A DNA stretch of 64,000 nucleotides from positions 1 to 64,000 of the IMG/VR virus record IMGVR_UViG_3300031853_000006. One strand, 5' to 3'. Position numbers and translations under genes: made by a program. Below, piece after piece: positions 14,438-62,398 of this stretch; within the stretch, counting starts at the first letter, position 1, and the number at the start of each line of letters is the position of its first letter. The stretch is from a virus. Its lineage: Duplodnaviria; Caudoviricetes. Below the pieces are notes generated by a model that saw only the letters and a program-made list of their open reading frames with translations, searched no databases and had not been told where the DNA came from.

Positions 14438-14523
14438 AATTACCTAATGAAATCAAACTTGACTGTAAAATCGTTATGTATGATGTACAGACGAAAAACT
14501 CACCGAAAGGAGAATTTTCAATC

Positions 14524-16756: not shown

Positions 16757-17416
16757 ATGAAACGCTATCGATATTATATACGCGAATCTAAATATCTAGA
16801 CGAAGAACAGCACAATGTATTGTTAGATGATACTTTGGAGATAGATATCGACATCGGCAGGTATCTGTATAAAATTGCTTCTAGCACTTCTGCAGAATAC
16901 GATAGGTTTCCGGGAGTATTTCAATTTAAGGAAGATGTACTTAAGATTCTTGAAGACGAATATCATTTTGAAGTAATCGAAGACGTATATGACGGAGTGC
17001 TCCAAAAAGGTCACATATCTAATCGGGCAGACAGCGCTTCTCTATACTTTGATACCTATTATGATCTATCTAATGCTACAGAGCCTAAATCTAGATTAGG
17101 GATAGCTTCGTTGAATATACCTGATTCAGGTAAAGTATACTGCTACATACATCTACGCTTTTCTGATCATCTGCACCCTGATCTAGGAGATAAAGAGCAC
17201 AATGCTTATTTAGACAGAAACATAGATAAGTATGCAAATAGAGCAGACGTAACACATGTAATGAAGGAAGAAGTATTTGAATTGCGAGAAGAAGCGCTAA
17301 TGCTTGCTTATAAAGACGCTTTGAGAATTCTAAAAGATGATTTAGATTTTAGAATAACTTCCTGGGTCAAGAAAGCTGAACACTATAAGAAAATTGAAAA
17401 CAAGTTAAACTTGTAA
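16757..17416 (+). CDS. hypothetical protein with S-x-Y...LRFSDH motif; related to 60735..61301
   Basis: Shared F-x-ED-[VI]-x6-Y, S-x-Y and LR[FI]S[DN]H motifs. Confidence 0.7.
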   Translation: MKRYRYYIRESKYLDEEQHNVLLDDTLEIDIDIGRYLYKIASSTSAEYDRFPGVFQFKEDVLKILEDEYHFEVIEDVYDGVLQKGHISNRADSASLYFDTYYDLSNATEPKSRLGIASLNIPDSGKVYCYIHLRFSDHLHPDLGDKEHNAYLDRNIDKYANRADVTHVMKEEVFELREEALMLAYKDALRILKDDLDFRITSWVKKAEHYKKIENKLNL

Positions 17417-54321: not shown

Positions 54322-56148
54322 ATGGCTAAGATAACCATCAATGAAATCTCCAAGAACTATACTTACTCTAGCGGTACTAGTTCATTTTGCTCAGTAGCTC
54401 TGCCAATGACGGCAAGCTGGGGACCTGCATTTGAGGATCCCAAAGCAGCAGGACAGGATCTTGCAACAATGCTAGAGACTACTGCATTCCAGCATTTCGC
54501 ATCTACTCAGGAAGGTCTGGAAGCATTTACAGCAACTTATAGAGGACCCGCTGCTAACTACAGATCAGCAAAGGATTACTCATACCAGATTGCGCTCACG
54601 TTGCTTACAATAGGATATGATCTTGATGTATGCCGTGTATGTGCAGGATCACACGCGTCAGGAAGATTTGATGCAACAATCGGATCATCAGCTGGATCGC
54701 TTACACTTAGAGCAAAGTACCCAGGATCATTTGGTAATAACCTGATCGGTGCTTTTTCAAAAGTAAACGGAAGAAACTACTGGAACCTTATCACTTATGT
54801 TGTTGATTCAACAGGTGCTAAGTCCGCAGTAGAGAATCTCGTGTTTGTGTTCGACATCGAGAACTCAACAGACACTATTCCGCATGTTTCTGAGATTGAG
54901 TCAGCATTCTTTGATCTGATTGTAGACGGAATTGACACAGACGACGATGTAGTATTCAACGCCGAAACAGTTACACTTGAAGGTGGATCCGATCGTCTTG
55001 CAGATGACGCCGCGGACGTAATGATGGATAGCGCTATTGCGCTTGCAACAACACGTTACGGACTTGTTTCTGCATCAGATCCGACTGATTACCTTGCAAC
55101 ACTCAACAATGTAAAAGCATCAAACCCGTCGGTATCAAAAGCATCAACAATCCGCTACATGGAGTGGAACTACAATGCAGCTTATTACGTACTTGAGATA
55201 CTTACAGATAAGCTTGCATACAATCATAAGAGAATGATCCTTCCCGGATGGGATGACCAGAACTTCGAGTTCCTAACAGGTGAACAGGTAGCAAGAATCG
55301 GAAGCATTTCACCGCTTCACGCAAGAATGATGAATGTAGCAGCACAGACCAGATGCGCATGTGCATTGCTTGATATTCCGAAATCACTTCTTAGATCCGG
55401 CGTATGGAACGACTCAACAGTTCCTACACAGGAAGGCTACGCACAGAAGATCGGCAGATACGTTCCTGATTCATCGATCAGCTCAGACGGATTGTTCCAG
55501 ACACACAGTGCATTGTTTGCACCTTGGTGCCAGTACAAATACGTAGGCACAGCAAGAAATAATCCGGCTCCGCCGGCATTCCTCGCACTGATGCTTCAGA
55601 TCTCAATGCTCAAGAATCAGTCACTTCAGTACGAGTGGGCTATGCCGACAACAAGAAAACATAATCTTGTAATCGGCGCACCTGATTACAAAGTGCCGAA
55701 GAAGCTGTTGGATCAGTGGCAGGGAGAAAGTGGAGTAAGCCTAAACATCATAACACCTATCCCGGATCAGGGCATGACCTTATGGGGCAACAGTACGGTT
55801 TTCGACCTCCCCGTAGCAACTTATCAGGCGCTTGCAAACCTGTCATCTAGATATCTTCTCGACGCCGTCGAAGATGTCGTTTACAGATGTGGTATCGGGA
55901 TTACCTTCCAGTATAACAACGAGGAAGCATACAGCAAGTTCTACGCGGGGGTATCTCCTTTATGCGATACTATGAAAGCAGTTGGTGCTATCACGTCTTA
56001 TAATATTACAATGTCCAAAGATATCAACGGATTGGATTCAGTCAATTTGAATTCTGTAGTTGGTGTCGTGGAACTTTATGTAGAAGGTATTATTACATCG
56101 ATTACTTGCGACCTGGTAGTACTCCCCGCAGGTACAGAAGGGGCTTAA
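54322..56148 (+). CDS. contractile tail sheath protein
   Basis: AKITINEI, WGP, AKYPGSFGN, APW, LWGNST, RYLL-x-x-VE typical of sheath proteins. Confidence 0.85.
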   Translation: MAKITINEISKNYTYSSGTSSFCSVALPMTASWGPAFEDPKAAGQDLATMLETTAFQHFASTQEGLEAFTATYRGPAANYRSAKDYSYQIALTLLTIGYDLDVCRVCAGSHASGRFDATIGSSAGSLTLRAKYPGSFGNNLIGAFSKVNGRNYWNLITYVVDSTGAKSAVENLVFVFDIENSTDTIPHVSEIESAFFDLIVDGIDTDDDVVFNAETVTLEGGSDRLADDAADVMMDSAIALATTRYGLVSASDPTDYLATLNNVKASNPSVSKASTIRYMEWNYNAAYYVLEILTDKLAYNHKRMILPGWDDQNFEFLTGEQVARIGSISPLHARMMNVAAQTRCACALLDIPKSLLRSGVWNDSTVPTQEGYAQKIGRYVPDSSISSDGLFQTHSALFAPWCQYKYVGTARNNPAPPAFLALMLQISMLKNQSLQYEWAMPTTRKHNLVIGAPDYKVPKKLLDQWQGESGVSLNIITPIPDQGMTLWGNSTVFDLPVATYQALANLSSRYLLDAVEDVVYRCGIGITFQYNNEEAYSKFYAGVSPLCDTMKAVGAITSYNITMSKDINGLDSVNLNSVVGVVELYVEGIITSITCDLVVLPAGTEGA

Positions 56149-56312: not shown

Positions 56313-58568
56313 ATGCCTAAAGCAATCAATCTAACTAGCACACAAGTAGAAGAACTGAAACAGCTAATTGCAGACGGCACTACACAGCAAAACGCTTGCA
56401 AACATTTTGGAATCTCCGAAAGTAAGTTAGCAGCTATTTGCAAAGAGAATAACATTGAACGCAAGTGGGTTAGAGAATATACTTGTGTTCTGTGCGGAAA
56501 GGTCTTCAAGGCATCTCATAAATCTGCTATATGTCCTGAATGCAAAGCTACTCCGAATGTGTGTGTAATCTGCGGAAAAGCATTCCCAAAGAAGTATTTC
56601 CCTTACAATCAAAAGACGTGTTCCGCTAAATGTCGAGGAGCATACAGAGCTCAATCCGGCACCGCAAAAGCAGGAGCACAGAAAATGAAAGAAACTAAAA
56701 TGGAGCGCTACGGCACGCTAGATCCTGCGGAAGTAACTAAGAAGAAAAAGGGAGGAGAACTTGATCCCAAGATCTGCCCATTGTGTGGAAAAGAATTTGT
56801 ACCGGATACTCCTAGACAAGTCTACTGCAAAGATGTTCATTATGTTCCCTGTCCGGTCTGTGGCAAGATGACAGAACTCAAAGATATTTCTATAGGCCCT
56901 CAGGCTTGCTCAGAAGGATGTAGAATGGCAAGGATCAATCAAACTTGCCTAGAGCGATACGGGAATAAGGACGCAGTCAATTCGGAGCACGCGAAGAAAC
57001 TGGGAAAGCAAACATCGCTTAGAAAGTATGGCAAAGAATATTACATGCAGACTGATAAAGCGAAGCAGCATTACAAAGATGTTATCCAAGAGAGATATGG
57101 AGTCACAGCTCCTATAGCATATCCAGAATTCAAGGAGAAGGCTAAGCGGACTAATCTGGAGAAGTATGGAACAGAGTATGCTTCACAGTCTGAAGAGATA
57201 AAAGAAAAGGTTAGACAGACTAATCAAGAGCTCTATGGTGGGGCAGGCTTCGCTTCGCCTATATTACGCAAGCGCATAACAGAAACAAACAAAGAGCGGT
57301 ATGGAGTAGAATTTCCAGTGAGCAGCCCAGAAATCCGACAGAAGATATCTCAGTCCCTTCGTGATAATTATGGAGTAGATAACTTCTGGAAAACCAAAGA
57401 AGACTTAGCAAGACGGATCAAAGATCCAAGAAAGATTGACGATTACTACGCATTTAAGCAAGATCCTAGAGGGTATGTAGAAAGCCATTACGAAGATAAA
57501 CCTCCAATCTATGTACTAGCAGATGATCTGGGAGTCACAGATACGCCCATTTATGATATACTCATCAACGCGAAATGTCAAGATGTAATAGATAGAACTA
57601 AACAGTCTAGCATGGAGTATGAAATCGAGCACTTATTGCGAAAGCTGGTGCCCGATGCAGAGATATGGGTCAATTGTAGACGAGTTCTTCCTGAAAATAA
57701 AGAGATTGATTTCTACTTGCCAGAATACAAATTCGGCATTGAATGTAATCCAACTATCACGCATAATTCTACAGTGTCTGCATGGAACCCTGGAGTAGAT
57801 CCCGCGCTGCCCGTCAGTTATCATAAACAGAAATCAGAACAAGCCATGCAGGTAGGCGTGTTCCTATTTCATATATTTGGATATGAATGGACAAACAAAC
57901 GAGCCATAATAGAATCAATGATTGCAAATATCTTAGGCAAAAATACAAATAAGGTCTATGCGAGGAATACACAGATAATACAAGTAGACGCGCCGACGGC
58001 TAAGAAGTTTCTAGACGATAATCACCGCCAAGGAGGGACTAACGCACCTATCAGATTAGGGCTCAAAGATAAGATTACTAACGAATTAGTGAGCCTCATG
58101 ACCTTTGGAAAAACACGTCCTAGTATCGGAAAGGAGCAAGATGCATTAGATACAGATTACGAATTGATACGATTCTGCAACAAATTGGGTACATCTGTAG
58201 TCGGAGGAGCGTCGAAGTTATTTAAGCATTTCTTATCAGAATATGCCCCAACAAAAGTGATATCATTTTCTGACATAGCACATACTAAAGGAGGACTGTA
58301 CCGGACACTAGGGTTCAAGGATGTAAGTCATTCTGATCCCGGATATGTATGGGTGAAACATTACACTGACGAATACCGAAACCGTGTATCCTGCCAGAAG
58401 GCGAACCTTCTAAAAATGTTTGACGATGTGACAGAAGAGGATATTGAAACAAAGTCAGAACGAAAAATCATGATAGACCACAAATACGTACAGGTTTACG
58501 ATAGCGGAGTCATACGATGGGAGTATACTCCAGTATCGTTAAATAGTGCAGAAGATGGAGGTGAATGA
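56313..58568 (+). CDS. multidomain endonuclease-like protein (Zn ribbons, [KR]YG repeats, Vsr/PD-(D/E)xK-like nuclease, C-terminal GNAT/Mom-like domain)
   Basis: CxxC pairs; ERYG/EKYG repeats; EIDFYLPEYKFGIECN; ELIRFC...VVGGASKLF...LY-x-x-LGF. Confidence 0.7.
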   Translation: MPKAINLTSTQVEELKQLIADGTTQQNACKHFGISESKLAAICKENNIERKWVREYTCVLCGKVFKASHKSAICPECKATPNVCVICGKAFPKKYFPYNQKTCSAKCRGAYRAQSGTAKAGAQKMKETKMERYGTLDPAEVTKKKKGGELDPKICPLCGKEFVPDTPRQVYCKDVHYVPCPVCGKMTELKDISIGPQACSEGCRMARINQTCLERYGNKDAVNSEHAKKLGKQTSLRKYGKEYYMQTDKAKQHYKDVIQERYGVTAPIAYPEFKEKAKRTNLEKYGTEYASQSEEIKEKVRQTNQELYGGAGFASPILRKRITETNKERYGVEFPVSSPEIRQKISQSLRDNYGVDNFWKTKEDLARRIKDPRKIDDYYAFKQDPRGYVESHYEDKPPIYVLADDLGVTDTPIYDILINAKCQDVIDRTKQSSMEYEIEHLLRKLVPDAEIWVNCRRVLPENKEIDFYLPEYKFGIECNPTITHNSTVSAWNPGVDPALPVSYHKQKSEQAMQVGVFLFHIFGYEWTNKRAIIESMIANILGKNTNKVYARNTQIIQVDAPTAKKFLDDNHRQGGTNAPIRLGLKDKITNELVSLMTFGKTRPSIGKEQDALDTDYELIRFCNKLGTSVVGGASKLFKHFLSEYAPTKVISFSDIAHTKGGLYRTLGFKDVSHSDPGYVWVKHYTDEYRNRVSCQKANLLKMFDDVTEEDIETKSERKIMIDHKYVQVYDSGVIRWEYTPVSLNSAEDGGE

Positions 58569-58569
58569 C

Positions 58570-60582
58570 ATGGCAACTTACACCTGCAAACGGTGCGGAA
58601 AACAGTTTGACCTAAGAGGTTTCAGCAAGTATTGCAAAGAATGTCGTGATTACTACACACCTTGCGTTATTTGCGGAACTCCAGTGCACCAGACGAATCC
58701 GGAAAATGAAGCTAAAACATGTTCAAGAAAGTGTGCAGGGCTGTATAGAAAACAATCTGGAATAAGTAAAGCTACTGCGGAGAAATCGATAGCGACTAAG
58801 AATAAGAAGTACGGCAACGGGTCAGGGGCTAAGTACAAGCCGAGGAAGTGTAAGCTCTGCGGAAAAGAGTTTATCCCAAATGGTTCAAAACAAGTTTACT
58901 GCAAGAATCCACATTACGGTCCGTGCCCTGTTTGCGGTAAGCAAACACTTATAAGGGAATTAAGCAAAGGACCGAACGCTTGTTCAGAAGAGTGTAGAAT
59001 AGCTCTTATTACTAAGTTAGCGAGAGAGCGCGATAATACCGAGTCGCTGAAGAAGAACCGGCAGACTTGCTTAGAAAGGTACGGAGTTGAATATTATTCC
59101 CAGACTAAAGAGTGGCGTGACAAAGTAGCCGAAACGTCAATGGAACATTACGGAACTACTTGCCCGCTAGCTAGCCCCGAAATTCATGAACAACTTGTTA
59201 AAACTAATATAGAGAAATATGGCTATGCTAATCCTGCGCAAGCTCCTGAAATAATTGAAAAGATTTCAAAGACTTTAGAAGAGCGTCATGGAGGTTGCGG
59301 AATGGCATCTGACGCAACACGTGAAAAGATATATGCAACTAACAAAGAACGCTACGGAGATATCCACCCTGCAAGGACTTTACAATGTAAGGAGAAGGGG
59401 AAGCAAACATCGTTGGCTCGTTACGGATACGAAAGCTATGCAAGTACTAAGGAAAGCATTGCACGTAGTATGCTAGATCCTAGCAAAATTGATGACTTCT
59501 GGAGCTTTCGCGCAGATCCTGAAACGTATGTAACATCTCATTACAAAGTGAAACCATATGCAGATGAATTAGCTGCCGATCTAGGATTCAATGAAACATC
59601 TGTATATGACATATTGATCAACTTCAACTGCAAAGATGTAATCAATCGTAGCAAAACTTCTATTATAGAAAGAGAGATGTACGAGTTCCTGACTACATTA
59701 GTCCCCGAATCTGAAATCAGAAAATGTGACAAACGGACAATCACCCCACTAGAATTAGATTTCTATCTGCCGAACTATAATTTTGCAATTGAATGCAATC
59801 CAACATATACTCACAATTCCTCATTCAAGTCCTTCGGAGAGGGTGAGCCTAAAACAACAGTGTACCACAGAAACAAAACAGATAAAGCAGAAGAAGCTGG
59901 GATATTTCTGATGCATGTTTTCGGGTATGATTGGCTTTATAAACAGGACATCATTAAATCGATGATACGCAACGCCTTAGGAAAATGTGATACTACAATT
60001 TACGCCCGGAATACAGAAGTAAAAGAGCTAGATGCAAAAACTACTCGTGAGTTTCTCAACACTAATCACAGACAAGGTGATGCATCATCTCCTATCAGAT
60101 TAGGTCTAATAGATAAGCAGACGAAAGAGCTTGTTTCAGTAATGACGTTTAGCAAACCTCGTACAACTATCGGAAGTAGTGCAGATGATCCTGAAGGATC
60201 TTATGAGCTTGTCAGATTCTGTAGTTTGCTAAATACTTCTGTAGTAGGAGGGGCTTCAAAACTATTCAAGTGGTTTAGTAGTAACTATAATCCTACAAAG
60301 ATAATATCATTCTCAGATAGAGCGCATACTCGAGGAAACTTATACAGCTCCTTAGGTTTTCACGAAGTTCGAAGATCTGATCCCGGTTACGCATGGGTCA
60401 ACGTATACACAGAAGACTACAAGAGCCGTGTAGCCTGCCAAAAACACAAACTCCCTCAGCTATTTGACGACGTAACTGAAGAAGATATGAGCAATAAGTC
60501 AGAACGAATCATAATGATGGAACATAATTACGCGCAAGTTTATGACAGCGGGACAATACGATGGGAGCTAGAACCCCGTTGA
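58570..60582 (+). CDS. tandem paralog of 56313..58568
   Basis: ELDFYLPNYNFAIECN; ELVRFC...VVGGASKLF; ATG at 58570 after GGAGG. Confidence 0.7.
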   Translation: MATYTCKRCGKQFDLRGFSKYCKECRDYYTPCVICGTPVHQTNPENEAKTCSRKCAGLYRKQSGISKATAEKSIATKNKKYGNGSGAKYKPRKCKLCGKEFIPNGSKQVYCKNPHYGPCPVCGKQTLIRELSKGPNACSEECRIALITKLARERDNTESLKKNRQTCLERYGVEYYSQTKEWRDKVAETSMEHYGTTCPLASPEIHEQLVKTNIEKYGYANPAQAPEIIEKISKTLEERHGGCGMASDATREKIYATNKERYGDIHPARTLQCKEKGKQTSLARYGYESYASTKESIARSMLDPSKIDDFWSFRADPETYVTSHYKVKPYADELAADLGFNETSVYDILINFNCKDVINRSKTSIIEREMYEFLTTLVPESEIRKCDKRTITPLELDFYLPNYNFAIECNPTYTHNSSFKSFGEGEPKTTVYHRNKTDKAEEAGIFLMHVFGYDWLYKQDIIKSMIRNALGKCDTTIYARNTEVKELDAKTTREFLNTNHRQGDASSPIRLGLIDKQTKELVSVMTFSKPRTTIGSSADDPEGSYELVRFCSLLNTSVVGGASKLFKWFSSNYNPTKIISFSDRAHTRGNLYSSLGFHEVRRSDPGYAWVNVYTEDYKSRVACQKHKLPQLFDDVTEEDMSNKSERIIMMEHNYAQVYDSGTIRWELEPR

Positions 60583-60734
60583 TAACACAACGAAAAAGGT
60601 TGTATCTCTAATTGAGGTACAACCTTCTTGATATTTATGTAGAATGTGAATCTAGTGGAGTTTCGAGGTTAGATCAGTGTGTTAATTGGCCTTGCGTGTC
60701 ATGACTCCTATTGCATGCTCTAAACTACTTGTTA

Positions 60735-61301
60735 CTATCGGCTAGCAACTTCTACAGCGCGTTTGATTACTTTCTTAGCATAGTCGAAAGCCTCTTCGTA
60801 AGATCCATATTTCTCTCCGTTTACAGTTATAATTCTTGTATAAGTTTCTAAATTTTCTATCTGCTCATCAGTCAAATATTCTTTAAGTTTTTCAGATTTC
60901 AGCTCCTGATCTTTGTTATATTTCTGTGAAGCGCTGCGCTTGGGACTATGATTAGATATGCGCAATCTGATCCTGATATTAGCTATGACATTTCCATCTG
61001 CGTCTGTTGCTAAGTAGTTATAGTAGTGTGAATGATCTGGACTAACATTTTTATATGTCCCAATCAATCCGTAGTTAACTTCGCACAGCCATTCTATGTC
61101 CTCCATGAATGCTTCGAAATCATCTATCATCCATTGCTTAATCTTCTTCTTATGCCTCGAAATTACGGGCCTGGAGGGGAGTTTAGGATGCGGAATACGT
61201 TCAGCTGCAGCTATAGTTCGAGGGTCAATCGAATAACCTGCGTCTACTACTATGTCAATGATTGCAGGATTAGTTTGATTACCCCTAACAAATATCTTCA
61301 T
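60735..61301 (-). CDS. hypothetical protein with S-x-Y...LRISNH motif; related to 16757..17416
   Basis: GGAAGGAG RBS on the minus strand; shared motifs. Confidence 0.75.
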   Translation of the reverse strand: MKIFVRGNQTNPAIIDIVVDAGYSIDPRTIAAAERIPHPKLPSRPVISRHKKKIKQWMIDDFEAFMEDIEWLCEVNYGLIGTYKNVSPDHSHYYNYLATDADGNVIANIRIRLRISNHSPKRSASQKYNKDQELKSEKLKEYLTDEQIENLETYTRIITVNGEKYGSYEEAFDYAKKVIKRAVEVASR

Positions 61302-61321
61302 ATCTATACTCCTTCCTAAAA

Positions 61322-61447
61322 TATAAAAGCATCACTAGAAGTAGAACAGTATGTTCTCGGCCAAGACAACAATACCCACGATTCTCTAGTGATGCTAATA
61401 TTCATAACGATTTACATCGTTGGGTACTTATCTCTATGTCTTGGCTT
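61322..61447 (-). ncRNA. structured leader/ncRNA, copy 2
   Basis: P1 61437-61445 with 61360-61368; P2 61385-61396 with 61328-61339; U-rich tail; same topology as 16568..16718. Confidence 0.65.
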
Positions 61448-61453
61448 AATTTT

Positions 61454-61482
61454 ATTATAAGCCCTGATAGGTGAAAAGTCAA
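61454..61482 (-). promoter_or_regulatory. sigma70/sigmaA-type promoter
   Basis: TTGACT-17 nt-TATAAT on the minus strand. Confidence 0.8.
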
Positions 61483-61621
61483 GACTTTTCTTAATATTTT
61501 CCAAATTACACAACGATTGCATATGAAAATCGTTAAATAATTCAAGAAGGGCACTTGACCCCTCACACGACGTAATGAGCAAATTACTTGAATCAGGATT
61601 CTAAAAGGAGAAGAACCGCCT

Positions 61622-61930
61622 ATGGATCACAGAGATAACAAAAAGAAAGTACTAAGTTCCGGAGGAAGCCGAAGATTATCGAATCAGCTGAATCCGTCGT
61701 TTACAACAGAACGAAGAAAAGATGAATGGTTGATTGATAGTTGCATTTACAAAGCCGATCAAAAGTTTTCTAATTCGCACTGCGGTAAGAGGTGTAAGAA
61801 TAGGAATGTTAGCGCTCTTAAGTGCCGAGGCGGATGCGGTTGTGAATACTACTTGTCGACGAAAGAATGGCGTCTTTCAAAGAAGGGCAAAGCGATTAAC
61901 CTGAAGGAGGAGTTAGGTCATGCCAGATGA
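61622..61930 (+). CDS. basic Cys-containing hypothetical protein
   Basis: AAGGAG RBS; ATCGTTA motif upstream. Confidence 0.6.
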   Translation: MDHRDNKKKVLSSGGSRRLSNQLNPSFTTERRKDEWLIDSCIYKADQKFSNSHCGKRCKNRNVSALKCRGGCGCEYYLSTKEWRLSKKGKAINLKEELGHAR

Positions 61931-62285
61931 TAACTACGACAGCTCTATAATTGTCCAAAATTGGCTCAAAGATCACAACATTCCTTTCACTACAGAACAG
62001 ACATTCGAAGGACTTGTAGGACAGAGCGGAGCTCACTTGAGATTCGACATTTACCTAGAACAGCACAAAATGTGTATAGAAGTGGACGGGCAGCAGCATT
62101 ATCGAGCGTGCAAAAATGTCAATATGAAAACTTTTCTCAAAAAGAGAAATCATGACAGGCGTAAAGAATGGTACTGTTATACACACGGGCTGTTCTTGTT
62201 GAGACTAGTCTGGGACGAACTCGCTTACTTAGATCAAATTCTCGGTTTCCTACTAAAATGGGAAGCGACGCTAGTACAAAGCTGA
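61920..62285 (+). CDS. DUF559/Vsr-like endonuclease
   Basis: LRFDIYL...IEVDGQQHY...DRRK...LLRL. Confidence 0.75.
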   Translation: MPDDNYDSSIIVQNWLKDHNIPFTTEQTFEGLVGQSGAHLRFDIYLEQHKMCIEVDGQQHYRACKNVNMKTFLKKRNHDRRKEWYCYTHGLFLLRLVWDELAYLDQILGFLLKWEATLVQS

Positions 62286-62322: not shown

Positions 62323-62351
62323 TTGACAAATTCATATATTTATCATATAAT
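62323..62351 (+). promoter_or_regulatory. sigma70/sigmaA-type promoter
   Basis: TTGACA-17 nt-TATAAT. Confidence 0.85.
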
Positions 62352-62398
62352 ATAATTGTATCGATCATTAAACACTTTATCAGGTAGGAGGCGTAATC

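What the first reader, a model, noticed from the sequence alone, without database searches (positions are those of the whole stretch)
60735..61482. Second copy of the RNA-protein unit, on the minus strand
Seen: TTGACT-17-TATAAT, P1 GCCAAGACA/TGTCTTGGC, inner TACCCAACGAT/ATCGTGGGTA, crossing P2 AGCATCACTAGA/TCTAGTGATGCT, U-rich tail, GGAAGGAG, then a 188-aa ORF sharing F-x-ED, S-x-Y and LRISNH with 16757. It is the only clear full-length minus-strand gene in the window, suggesting a self-contained, insertable module.
Basis: partly seen in the sequence, partly recalled or inferred. Interest (0 to 1): 0.7.

Follow-up and report, generated by a model that had tools for sequence, protein, structure and literature searches.

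The report
Pseudoknot-terminator leader before a phage gene
An uncultured cattle-gut phage places a ~125-base folded RNA, whose tip pairs with a downstream transcription-stop signal, between a strong early promoter and each of three distantly related genes of unknown function; this is the second copy, it most likely throttles or times the gene's expression, and no experiment has tested it.

Summary
Every element is at the stated coordinates on the minus strand: the promoter, P1, the inner stem, the crossing helix, the U-tract, the SD and the 188-aa ORF.

The layout is not chance. A descriptor for it finds exactly three sites in the 116,896-base phage record and none in 30 shuffled genomes. All three lie before the three paralogous genes. 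Of 14 near-consensus promoters, only these three carry long structured leaders.

The 188-aa and 219-aa proteins are homologous (hhalign 98.4%, E 4e-15). They belong to an uncharacterised, metagenome-only family with no Pfam, PHROG, PADLOC or PDB relative. The predicted fold resembles an endonuclease only weakly.

My best reading (0.55) is a cis-acting transcription attenuator. The 5' arm of its terminator helix sits in the apical loop of a P1-closed domain, giving pseudoknot geometry with a 19-nt linker in all three copies.

A toxin/RNA-antitoxin pair is less likely, because homologues in two other contigs have no such leader. The leader also holds a phage promoter-like motif, so a dual-promoter design is a live rival.

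The claim of a self-contained insertable module rests only on neighbouring homing-endonuclease genes and one weak flanking repeat.

The scan had already noted copies 1 and 3 of this genome, and this same stretch read in another window.

The parts
61454..61482 (-). Early sigma-A-type promoter: TTGACT (61482-61477), 17-nt spacer, TATAAT (61459-61454). It shares the AAAAGTCTTGAC flank of the phage's promoter family. The predicted start is near 61447.
   Evidence: 11 of 12 consensus matches
61437..61445 (-). P1 5' arm GCCAAGACA, about 2 nt from the predicted RNA 5' end
61416..61426 (-). Inner stem 5' arm TACCCAACGAT
61404..61415 (-). Apical-loop motif GTAAATCGTTAT. It is shared with leader copy 3 and resembles a recurrent promoter-like motif of this phage and a relative.
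61385..61396 (-). 5' arm (c) of the long-range helix, AGCATCACTAGA. It lies in the apical loop, 2 nt before the inner stem's 3' arm.
   Evidence: (I1)
61373..61382 (-). Inner stem 3' arm ATCGTGGGTA
61360..61368 (-). P1 3' arm TGTCTTGGC
61340..61359 (-). 19-20-nt linker holding a small hairpin (61357-61343). The linker is 19 nt in all three copies.
61318..61339 (-). 3' arm (c') TCTAGTGATGCT (61339-61328) followed at once by the U-tract TTTATATTTT (61327-61318). This is the putative attenuator stop signal.
61309..61316 (-). Shine-Dalgarno GGAAGGAG, 1 nt after the U-tract and 7 nt before the ATG
60735..61301 (-). 188-aa ORF. It belongs to an uncharacterised phage protein superfamily with the signature S-x-Y ... 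LR-x-S-[DN]-H ... VN ... Y-x-x-A.
60596..60626 (.). Canonical hairpin terminator in the convergent gap. It could serve both the minus-strand ORF and the plus-strand gene that ends at 60582.
   Evidence: I2

Best explanation
The stretch is a cis-acting transcription-attenuator leader placed in front of a phage gene of unknown function.

Proposed mechanism:
- Host RNA polymerase starts at a near-consensus early promoter, near 61447.
- The first ~90 nt fold into a P1-closed domain (P1 plus an inner stem). Its apical loop displays a 12-nt segment c.
- After a 19-nt linker the complementary segment c' is made, followed directly by a U-tract.
- The c:c' helix forms either as an H-type pseudoknot stacked on the inner stem or by displacing P1 and the inner stem. 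Either way it acts as the stem of an intrinsic terminator, so most transcripts end at about 61318, one base before the ribosome-binding site.
- Only read-through transcripts express the 188-aa protein.
- Read-through is probably set by something that occupies the apical loop. That could be the encoded protein (autogenous control) or another phage or host factor. The gene's amount or timing after infection would be controlled this way.

Shown: the sequence elements, their non-random recurrence before all three paralogues, the energetics, and the protein homology. Inferred: termination at the U-tract, the pseudoknot itself, and any factor that modulates it.
For: 1. Specific association. Of 14 near-consensus promoters in the record, 11 have unstructured leaders of about 19-73 nt, where a downstream gene was called reliably. 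Only the 3 before the paralogous genes have structured leaders of 145-189 nt.
2. The architecture descriptor hits exactly these 3 sites, with 0 hits in 30 shuffled genomes and 0 in 145 kb of other loci.
3. Arm sequences differ completely between copies, yet complementarity is kept. P1 is GCCAAGACA, TTGCTAGAGGAA or CGTCAAGACAAA. Segment c is AGCAUCACUAGA, CGCCGUCUAUU or ACGCCACUC. Geometry is also kept:
- c lies directly 5' of the 3' strand of its enclosing stem
- the linker is 19 nt in all three
- c' abuts UUUUAUAUUU or UUUUUCAUUU
4. Energetics for copy 2, from the start site to the U-tract:
- nested fold with c:c': -35.1 kcal/mol
- P1 fold: -30.8 kcal/mol
- c:c' duplex alone: about -18 kcal/mol
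- crude pseudoknot estimate: about -43 kcal/mol
- whole-leader z-score -2.96; copy 1 z-score -3.72
5. No promoter lies between the U-tract and the SD, which is 1 nt downstream. The gene therefore depends on read-through.
6. Leaderless homologues elsewhere fit an optional regulatory add-on.
7. Protein-dependent attenuators of this general logic exist in Bacillota, such as the L20/infC leader (PMC1865079).
Against: - There are no RNA data. No 3' end at the U-tract has been seen.
- The terminator helix is not a local hairpin. It encloses a 43-50-nt insert, and the standard terminator scan does not call it. Its termination efficiency is therefore unknown.
- Only three examples exist, all from one genome, so covariation rests on paralogues and not on a phylogeny.
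- No relative with the leader could be retrieved.
- The conserved loop motif could act as DNA (a promoter) and not as RNA.
Confidence: 0.55

Rival explanations
1. Dual-promoter gate. The apical-loop motif GTAAATCGTTAT(G)AATATT would be a second, phage-specific promoter inside the leader. Early transcripts from the sigma-A promoter are stopped by the c:c' terminator. Later transcripts start within or next to c, lack P1, the inner stem and part of c, and so read into the gene.
For: - AATCGTTAA occurs 12 times on the gene strand and 0 times on the other strand, against about 2 expected. It usually lies 31-61 nt before an SD and start codon.
- The related AAATTCGTTATA precedes 13 genes in the related record G001, including a paralogue of this protein.
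- The 12-nt motif is identical in leaders 2 and 3, although the rest of those leaders has diverged.
- In copy 2, a start about 7 nt after the -10-like GAATAT would fall inside c.
Against: - The leaders carry the TCGTTAT variant, which shows no strand bias in this genome (3 plus, 4 minus).
- Several AATCGTTAA sites are simply gene ends with a TAA stop.
- The motif-to-ATG distance is 111-119 nt here, against 31-61 nt at the other sites.
- In copy 3 the inferred start would leave c intact.
- Copy 1 has only a one-mismatch version, in a different place (the linker).
- No start site has been mapped.
Confidence: 0.13
2. RNA-protein neutralisation pair of the type III toxin-antitoxin or AbiF-RCd22 kind. 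The terminated ~125-nt RNA accumulates in excess and binds and inhibits the harmful protein made from rare read-through transcripts. There would be three orthogonal pairs in one phage.
For: - The linear layout matches RCd22-abiF: a SigA promoter, a 100-130-nt structured RNA ending in a terminator, then the RBS and ORF, with short and read-through transcripts (PMC12373285).
- RNA and protein have diverged together in three copies.
- Both structure models weakly resemble endonuclease folds, including the metal-independent tRNA-splicing endonuclease.
- The protein has a basic segment after the LRISNH motif.
Against: - There are no tandem repeats.
- There is no abiF or other Rfam match.
- No Pfam, PADLOC or NCBIfam toxin family matches.
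- Three homologous genes on two other contigs have no such RNA upstream. That would be lethal if the RNA were an obligate antidote.
- The family was found only in phage or metagenome contigs and in none of 185,579 prokaryote species genomes.
Confidence: 0.12
3. Independent small RNA gene. The promoter-to-U-tract unit would make a stable trans-acting RNA with its own target, and its position before the ORF would be incidental.
For: - It has a strong promoter, a 5'-terminal stem and a 3' helix plus U-tract, the usual anatomy of a bacterial sRNA.
- No other promoter for the ORF is needed if read-through is leaky.
Against: - The RNA occurs only, and always, directly before paralogues of one protein family.
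- The SD follows the U-tract by 1 nt.
- Arm sequences differ between copies, so there is no common seed for a trans target.
Confidence: 0.08
4. Small-molecule riboswitch. The P1-closed domain would be an aptamer, and ligand binding would decide whether c is free to form the terminator.
For: A P1-closed domain followed by a terminator whose 5' arm lies inside the domain is riboswitch-like. The two folds are nearly isoenergetic.
Against: - The interior of the domain is not conserved between the three copies, apart from a 12-nt motif in two of them.
- No Rfam family matches.
- The downstream genes are not metabolic or transport genes.
Confidence: 0.07

Closest known systems
Protein-dependent terminator/antiterminator leaders of Bacillota, e.g. 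the L20-controlled infC-rpmI-rplT leader of Bacillus subtilis (PMC1865079)
   Same: A leader of about 150-200 nt lies between a single promoter and the first gene. It has alternative folds, one of which is an intrinsic terminator, and control acts on transcription elongation. The suggested autogenous control by the encoded protein would work the same way.
   Different: Here the terminator's 5' arm is displayed in the apical loop of a P1-closed domain, in pseudoknot geometry with a fixed 19-nt linker, and not in a local hairpin. The regulator is unknown. There is no Rfam match. It is a phage element present in three diverged copies.
RCd22 RNA / AbiF (Abi_2) system of a Clostridioides difficile prophage, and type III toxin-antitoxin systems such as ToxIN (PMC12373285; ToxIN from my own knowledge)
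   Same: The order of parts is the same: a sigma-A promoter, a 100-130-nt structured non-coding RNA, a Rho-independent stop signal, then the RBS and ORF. Expression depends on read-through.
   Different: There are no abiF motifs and no tandem repeats. The protein is not Abi_2/HEPN, ToxN, CptN or TenpN. The terminator is non-local. Homologues occur without the RNA. The host element appears to be a virulent-type large phage and not a prophage or plasmid.
Phage T4 gene 32 mRNA leader (5' pseudoknot that nucleates gp32 binding; my own knowledge, not checked here)
   Same: It is a phage leader with a pseudoknot near the 5' end, used for autogenous control of the downstream gene.
   Different: The T4 case is translational repression by cooperative single-strand binding. 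Here the pseudoknot helix is joined to a U-tract, which points to control of transcription.
Restriction-endonuclease-like (PD-(D/E)xK) fold proteins: archaeal Hjc, VRR_NUC, I-Ssp6803I, tRNA-splicing endonuclease
   Same: Both AF2 models (188-aa and 219-aa families) show an alpha-beta-beta-beta-alpha-beta core. Both return the same set of nuclease chains.
   Different: Z is only 4-6, below the tool's stated noise level. The canonical acidic and lysine catalytic residues are not conserved. The conserved residues are S, Y, R, S, H and N.

Membership tests
Canonical intrinsic (Rho-independent) terminator | Local G+C-rich hairpin with a short loop, directly followed by a U-tract | tested here: not met
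   The scan finds no local hairpin-plus-T-run in the leader. The only helix abutting the U-tract is long-range, with a 43-45-nt insert.
Canonical intrinsic (Rho-independent) terminator | Stable helix whose 3' arm ends 0-2 nt before a U-rich run of 7-9 nt or more | tested here: met
   The 12-bp c:c' helix (duplex about -18 kcal/mol) is followed at once by UUUAUAUUUU.
H-type pseudoknot | The 5' arm of stem 2 lies in the loop of stem 1, at most about 2 nt from stem 1's 3' strand, with the 3' arm of stem 2 downstream | tested here: met
   Sequence geometry in copies 2 and 3: 2 nt and 1 nt. In copy 1, c is followed directly by the 3' strand of the enclosing stem predicted. Whether the helices coexist cannot be tested with these tools.
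Type III toxin-antitoxin (ToxIN, CptIN, TenpIN) | Antitoxin RNA made of tandem direct repeats | tested here: not met
   No tandem repeat in 60500-61700. No direct-repeat family in the leader.
Type III toxin-antitoxin (ToxIN, CptIN, TenpIN) | Toxin of a known endoribonuclease family (ToxN/AbiQ, CptN, TenpN) | tested here: not met
   No Pfam, PADLOC or NCBIfam match for any of the paralogues.
AbiF / RCd22-like system | abiF RNA motif (Rfam RF03085) upstream of an Abi_2 protein | tested here: not met
   Rfam E-value scans of all three leaders list no abiF match up to E = 10. There is no Abi_2 Pfam hit.
Any Rfam riboswitch or cis-regulatory family | Match to a curated covariance model | tested here: not met
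   The gathering-threshold scan of the window finds only two tRNAs. Permissive scans give only sub-threshold chance hits.
PD-(D/E)xK nuclease superfamily | alpha-beta-beta-beta-alpha-beta core fold | tested here: inconclusive
   Both models show that order of elements. Both return Hjc, VRR_NUC, I-Ssp6803I, FokI and similar chains at Z 4-6, below the level the tool calls meaningful. Foldseek finds nothing at E <= 0.001.
PD-(D/E)xK nuclease superfamily | Conserved acidic residues and lysine (E ... D ... (D/E)-x-K) | tested here: not met
   Across 65 diverse members the nearly invariant residues are F65, S91, Y93, R114, S116, H118, V160, N161, Y168 and A171. There is no conserved D/E-x-K.
LR-x-S-[DN]-H phage protein superfamily (unnamed; defined here) | Significant profile match and the shared signature S-x-Y, LR-x-S-[DN]-H, Y-x-x-A | tested here: met
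   There are 119 clusters at E <= 1e-3. A4 against A2 gives 98.4%, E 4.4e-15. Copy 3 links both families.

The most novel reading that the evidence does not exclude
A previously undescribed kind of regulatory RNA: a pseudoknot-type intrinsic terminator. Its 5' arm is pre-displayed on a P1-closed scaffold at a fixed 19-nt distance. It has co-evolved in three orthogonal copies with a new family of endonuclease-fold, possibly metal-independent RNA-binding or RNA-cleaving proteins. Each protein would recognise its own leader, either for autogenous control or as an RNA antidote. The result would be three private RNA-protein switches in one phage.
Probability: 0.2. Interest if true: 0.75.

Novelty: new variant of a known kind. 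Interest (0 to 1): 0.55.

Why it matters
If the long-range helix does stop transcription, it would be a clear natural case of a terminator built as a pseudoknot on a scaffold. That design is not in Rfam, and standard terminator finders miss it.

It would also give a handle on an uncharacterised protein family of large gut phages: 119 clusters, with no Pfam or PDB relative. Whatever controls read-through probably reports on what these proteins do early in infection.

Three diverged copies in one genome form a ready-made set of compensatory variants for experiments.

Tried and rejected
The contigs of the 16 + 23 + 7 metagenomic homologues could not be fetched, so no phylogenetic covariation test of the leader was possible.
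- GenBank phages gave no DNA or protein match.
- IMG/VR gave no relative of the 188-aa family or of copy 3, and one relative of the 219-aa family (L005).
- JGI metagenomes gave one locus (L002).
- GTDB genomes gave none.
- The A4 profile was too diverse for a locus scan.
- A scan for the phage promoter word returned 15 apparently unrelated phage loci with no leader.
- The phrog_2657 'transcriptional regulator' hit (E 1e-4) was rejected. It matches only 1 of 17 family members, in a K/E-rich helix.
- The ESM Atlas gave no usable hit.
- The PDB sequence profiles gave nothing.
- The apparent mini-leader hairpin before the paralogue in L005 was rejected. It consists of the TCGTTATA promoter-like DNA itself.
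- The MAFFT alignment of the three leaders does not respect the structure. I therefore built no covariance model and used a descriptor search instead.
- No RNA holder was listed among public runs.
- Laying contigs from four bovine-gut DNA runs gave only short, near-identical fragments. They showed no variation in the leader, and none bridged the module's borders.
It was rerun from coordinates.
- Complex prediction was not used. No protein partner is claimed, and the tool does not take RNA.

Full report
**What is there**

The window is the first 64 kb of a 116,896-base linear IMG/VR virus record, estimated 78% complete. Near-identical fragments turn up in several bovine-gut DNA runs.

- TTGACT (61482-61477), 17 nt, TATAAT (61459-61454), 11 of 12 consensus positions
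- P1 GCCAAGACA (61445-61437) with TGTCTTGGC (61368-61360)
- an inner stem, TACCCAACGAT (61426-61416) with ATCGTGGGTA (61382-61373)
- a crossing helix, AGCATCACTAGA (61396-61385) with TCTAGTGATGCT (61339-61328)
- a U-rich run (61327-61318)
- GGAAGGAG (61316-61309)
- an ATG at 61301 that opens a 188-aa frame ending at 60735

A canonical hairpin at 60596-60626 sits in the convergent gap and can terminate both the minus-strand gene and the plus-strand gene that ends at 60582.

**Is it more than chance?**

I listed all near-consensus sigma-70-type promoters in the whole record. There are 14 good ones, and they share flanking sequence (AAAAGTCTTGAC...). The promoter of this unit therefore belongs to the phage's own family.

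Following each promoter to the next SD-preceded ORF gives short unstructured leaders for eleven of them, about 19-73 nt where the gene call is reliable. The three before the paralogous genes at 16757, 61301 (minus strand) and 99381 have 189, 145 and 171 nt with deep predicted folds.

I then wrote a descriptor for the architecture: an outer stem of at least 8 bp encloses the 5' arm of a helix of at least 9 bp, whose 3' arm ends 0-2 nt before a U-tract, with one G-U pair allowed.
- It finds exactly these three places on both strands of the record.
- It finds nothing in 30 Markov-shuffled genomes.

**The RNA**

The three leaders share almost no sequence in their helices. P1 is GCCAAGACA, UUGCUAGAGGAA or CGUCAAGACAAA. 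The crossing helix is AGCAUCACUAGA, CGCCGUCUAUU or ACGCCACUC.

They do share geometry:
- The 5' arm c lies inside the P1-closed domain, directly before the 3' strand of the stem that encloses it (2 nt in copy 2, 1 nt in copy 3).
- The linker from the end of P1 to c' is 19 nt in all three (19-20 in copy 2, depending on a terminal G-U pair).
- c' is followed at once by UUUUAUAUUU or UUUUUCAUUU.

This is the geometry of an H-type pseudoknot whose second stem doubles as the stem of an intrinsic terminator.

Energies for copy 2, from the start site to the U-tract:
- nested fold containing c:c': -35.1 kcal/mol
- P1 fold with c and c' free: -30.8 kcal/mol
- c:c' duplex alone: about -18 kcal/mol
- crude pseudoknot estimate: about -43 kcal/mol

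The leader folds better than its shuffles (z = -2.96; copy 1 z = -3.72). No Rfam family matches any of the three leaders at any useful score. There are no tandem repeats. The standard terminator scan does not see the element because the helix is not local. The SD starts one base after the U-tract and no promoter lies between them, so the gene depends on read-through.

**The protein**

The 188-aa protein has 16 metagenomic relatives at 41-60% identity. A profile search of 1.84 billion representatives finds 119 clusters at E <= 1e-3, nearly all 160-200 aa.

BLASTP against the 219-aa protein of copy 1 is not significant, and the first profile comparison gave only 14.5%. The deeper evidence shows they are homologous:
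- A third paralogue, found with the copy-1 profile at 99381-99896, matches both families over their full length (89%, E 2e-6; and 95.7%, E 1e-8).
- A 65-member profile of the 188-aa superfamily matches the 219-aa family at 98.4%, E 4.4e-15.

The nearly invariant residues are F65, S91, Y93, R114, S116, H118, V160, N161, Y168 and A171.

No Pfam, PHROG, PADLOC, NCBIfam or PDB sequence relative exists.

AlphaFold2 models of both families (pLDDT 76.6 and 75.1) have the same alpha-beta-beta-beta-alpha-beta-alpha order. Foldseek finds nothing significant in the PDB or BFVD. The wide structural search returns, for both models independently, the same weak list at Z 4-6: Hjc resolvases, VRR_NUC, I-Ssp6803I, I-Bth0305I, FokI, McrC, Bax1, tRNA-splicing endonuclease, and also chimallin. 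The tool itself rates that range as possibly only a common arrangement. The canonical PD-(D/E)xK residues are not conserved. I therefore call the fold endonuclease-like at most and the function unknown.

**Relatives**

Only two other contigs carrying family members could be read.
- In L002 a close homologue of the 188-aa protein follows another paralogue, with a 4-nt gap and no leader.
- In L005, part of a 34-kb IMG/VR record, a 190-aa paralogue (hhalign 99.96% to the family) and a 207-aa homologue of the copy-1 protein both lack the leader.

The short hairpin before the 190-aa gene turned out to be promoter-like DNA. The word TCGTTATA recurs 25-60 nt before 13 genes of that record.

This observation also bears on the leader itself. 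The 12-nt word GUAAAUCGUUAU is identical in the apical loops of leaders 2 and 3, and AATCGTTAA occurs 12 times on the gene strand of this phage and never on the other strand, mostly 31-61 nt before gene starts. The loop motif may therefore be a second, phage-specific promoter embedded in the leader, or the binding site of a common factor. I keep this as a rival, or a complement, to the main reading. Its weak points are the following:
- the leader variant (…TTAT) shows no strand bias
- the distance to the ATG is two to three times the usual one
- copy 1 has only a degenerate version elsewhere

**Interpretation**

The best-supported reading is a cis-acting attenuator. The early promoter fires, the scaffold folds, c' pairs with the displayed c, and the helix next to the U-tract stops most polymerases one base before the SD. 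Read-through, possibly modulated by a factor bound to the apical loop, sets how much of the protein is made and when. The encoded protein is the obvious candidate for that factor, by analogy with the L20/infC leader (PMC1865079).

The layout also equals that of the RCd22/AbiF system (PMC12373285) and of type III toxin-antitoxin loci. However, none of their defining features is met, and leaderless homologues argue against an obligate RNA antidote.

A ligand riboswitch is unlikely because the domain interior is not conserved among copies. A free-standing sRNA is unlikely because the element is found only, and always, before this gene family.

**The 'insertable module' idea**

The unit lies in an accessory patch after the tail-sheath-like gene. 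On one side are two tandem homing-endonuclease-like genes of about 700 aa (56313-58568 and 58546-60582). On the other is a 121-aa endonuclease fragment (61920-62285). An 11/12 direct repeat (60582-60593 and 61505-61516) brackets the unit exactly, but a single such pair in 2 kb can be chance. The promoter is of the phage's own type. Presence or absence at this site in relatives could not be examined. Mobility is therefore possible but not shown.

**Standing**

The scan had already noted the same architecture at copies 1 and 3 of this genome, and this stretch itself in another window. I used those notes as leads only.

Noticed in passing
G000 whole record; in the window at 342, 3284, 15518, 21985, 39739, 44203, 61528 (+), variant at 14469: AATCGTTAA occurs 12 times on the plus (gene) strand and never on the minus strand, against about 2 expected. 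It usually lies 31-61 nt before an SD and start codon. It is probably a second, phage-specific promoter class or a regulator site, though some copies are simply gene ends with a TAA stop.
   Followed up: partly
L022/L023 (IMG/VR record IMGVR_UViG_3300028887_001852, 34,150 b): AAATTCGTTATA recurs in 13 intergenic places, 25-60 nt before gene starts, all on the gene strand. It looks like this related phage's main promoter motif.
   Followed up: partly
window 4866, 6915, 16532, 56229, 62323 (+), 61482 (-); further copies beyond the window: Fourteen near-consensus sigma-70-type promoters share an extended consensus, AAAAGTCTTGACAAATTCATA..TCATATAATATACTTGTA. This points to one promoter family that spread or was homogenised within the genome. 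Many contigs in bovine-gut runs carry the 62323-62360 version.
   Followed up: partly
window 60582-60593 and 61505-61516: An 11/12 direct repeat, ATAACACAACGA / ATTACACAACGA, brackets the whole minus-strand unit (terminator, ORF, leader and promoter). It could be a target duplication or chance.
   Followed up: no
window 56313-58568, 58546-60582, 61622-62285: Two tandem homing-endonuclease-like genes of about 700 aa (phrog_3339, E 1e-99 and 5e-106; DUF7487) and a 121-aa endonuclease fragment flank the unit, just after a tail-sheath-like gene (54322-56148).
   Followed up: partly
G000:C1:77586 (-), outside the window: This is the only other minus-strand near-consensus promoter with an SD-preceded ORF. 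It precedes a 328-aa ORF that starts MEDDFKKEKICEFCGKPF; its cysteine pattern suggests a zinc finger, but no family search was run on it. Minus-strand genes in this phage may be later additions.
   Followed up: no
L002:3-416 and L005:564-1136: Other phages carry the family as tandem or neighbouring paralogues (a 137-aa fragment and a 190-aa protein). Paralogue expansion is therefore a general trait of the family.
   Followed up: partly
N-termini of the family: Most members start MKR[YF]I[RK]xS. The copy-2 protein has a degenerate version (MKIFVRGN).
   Followed up: no
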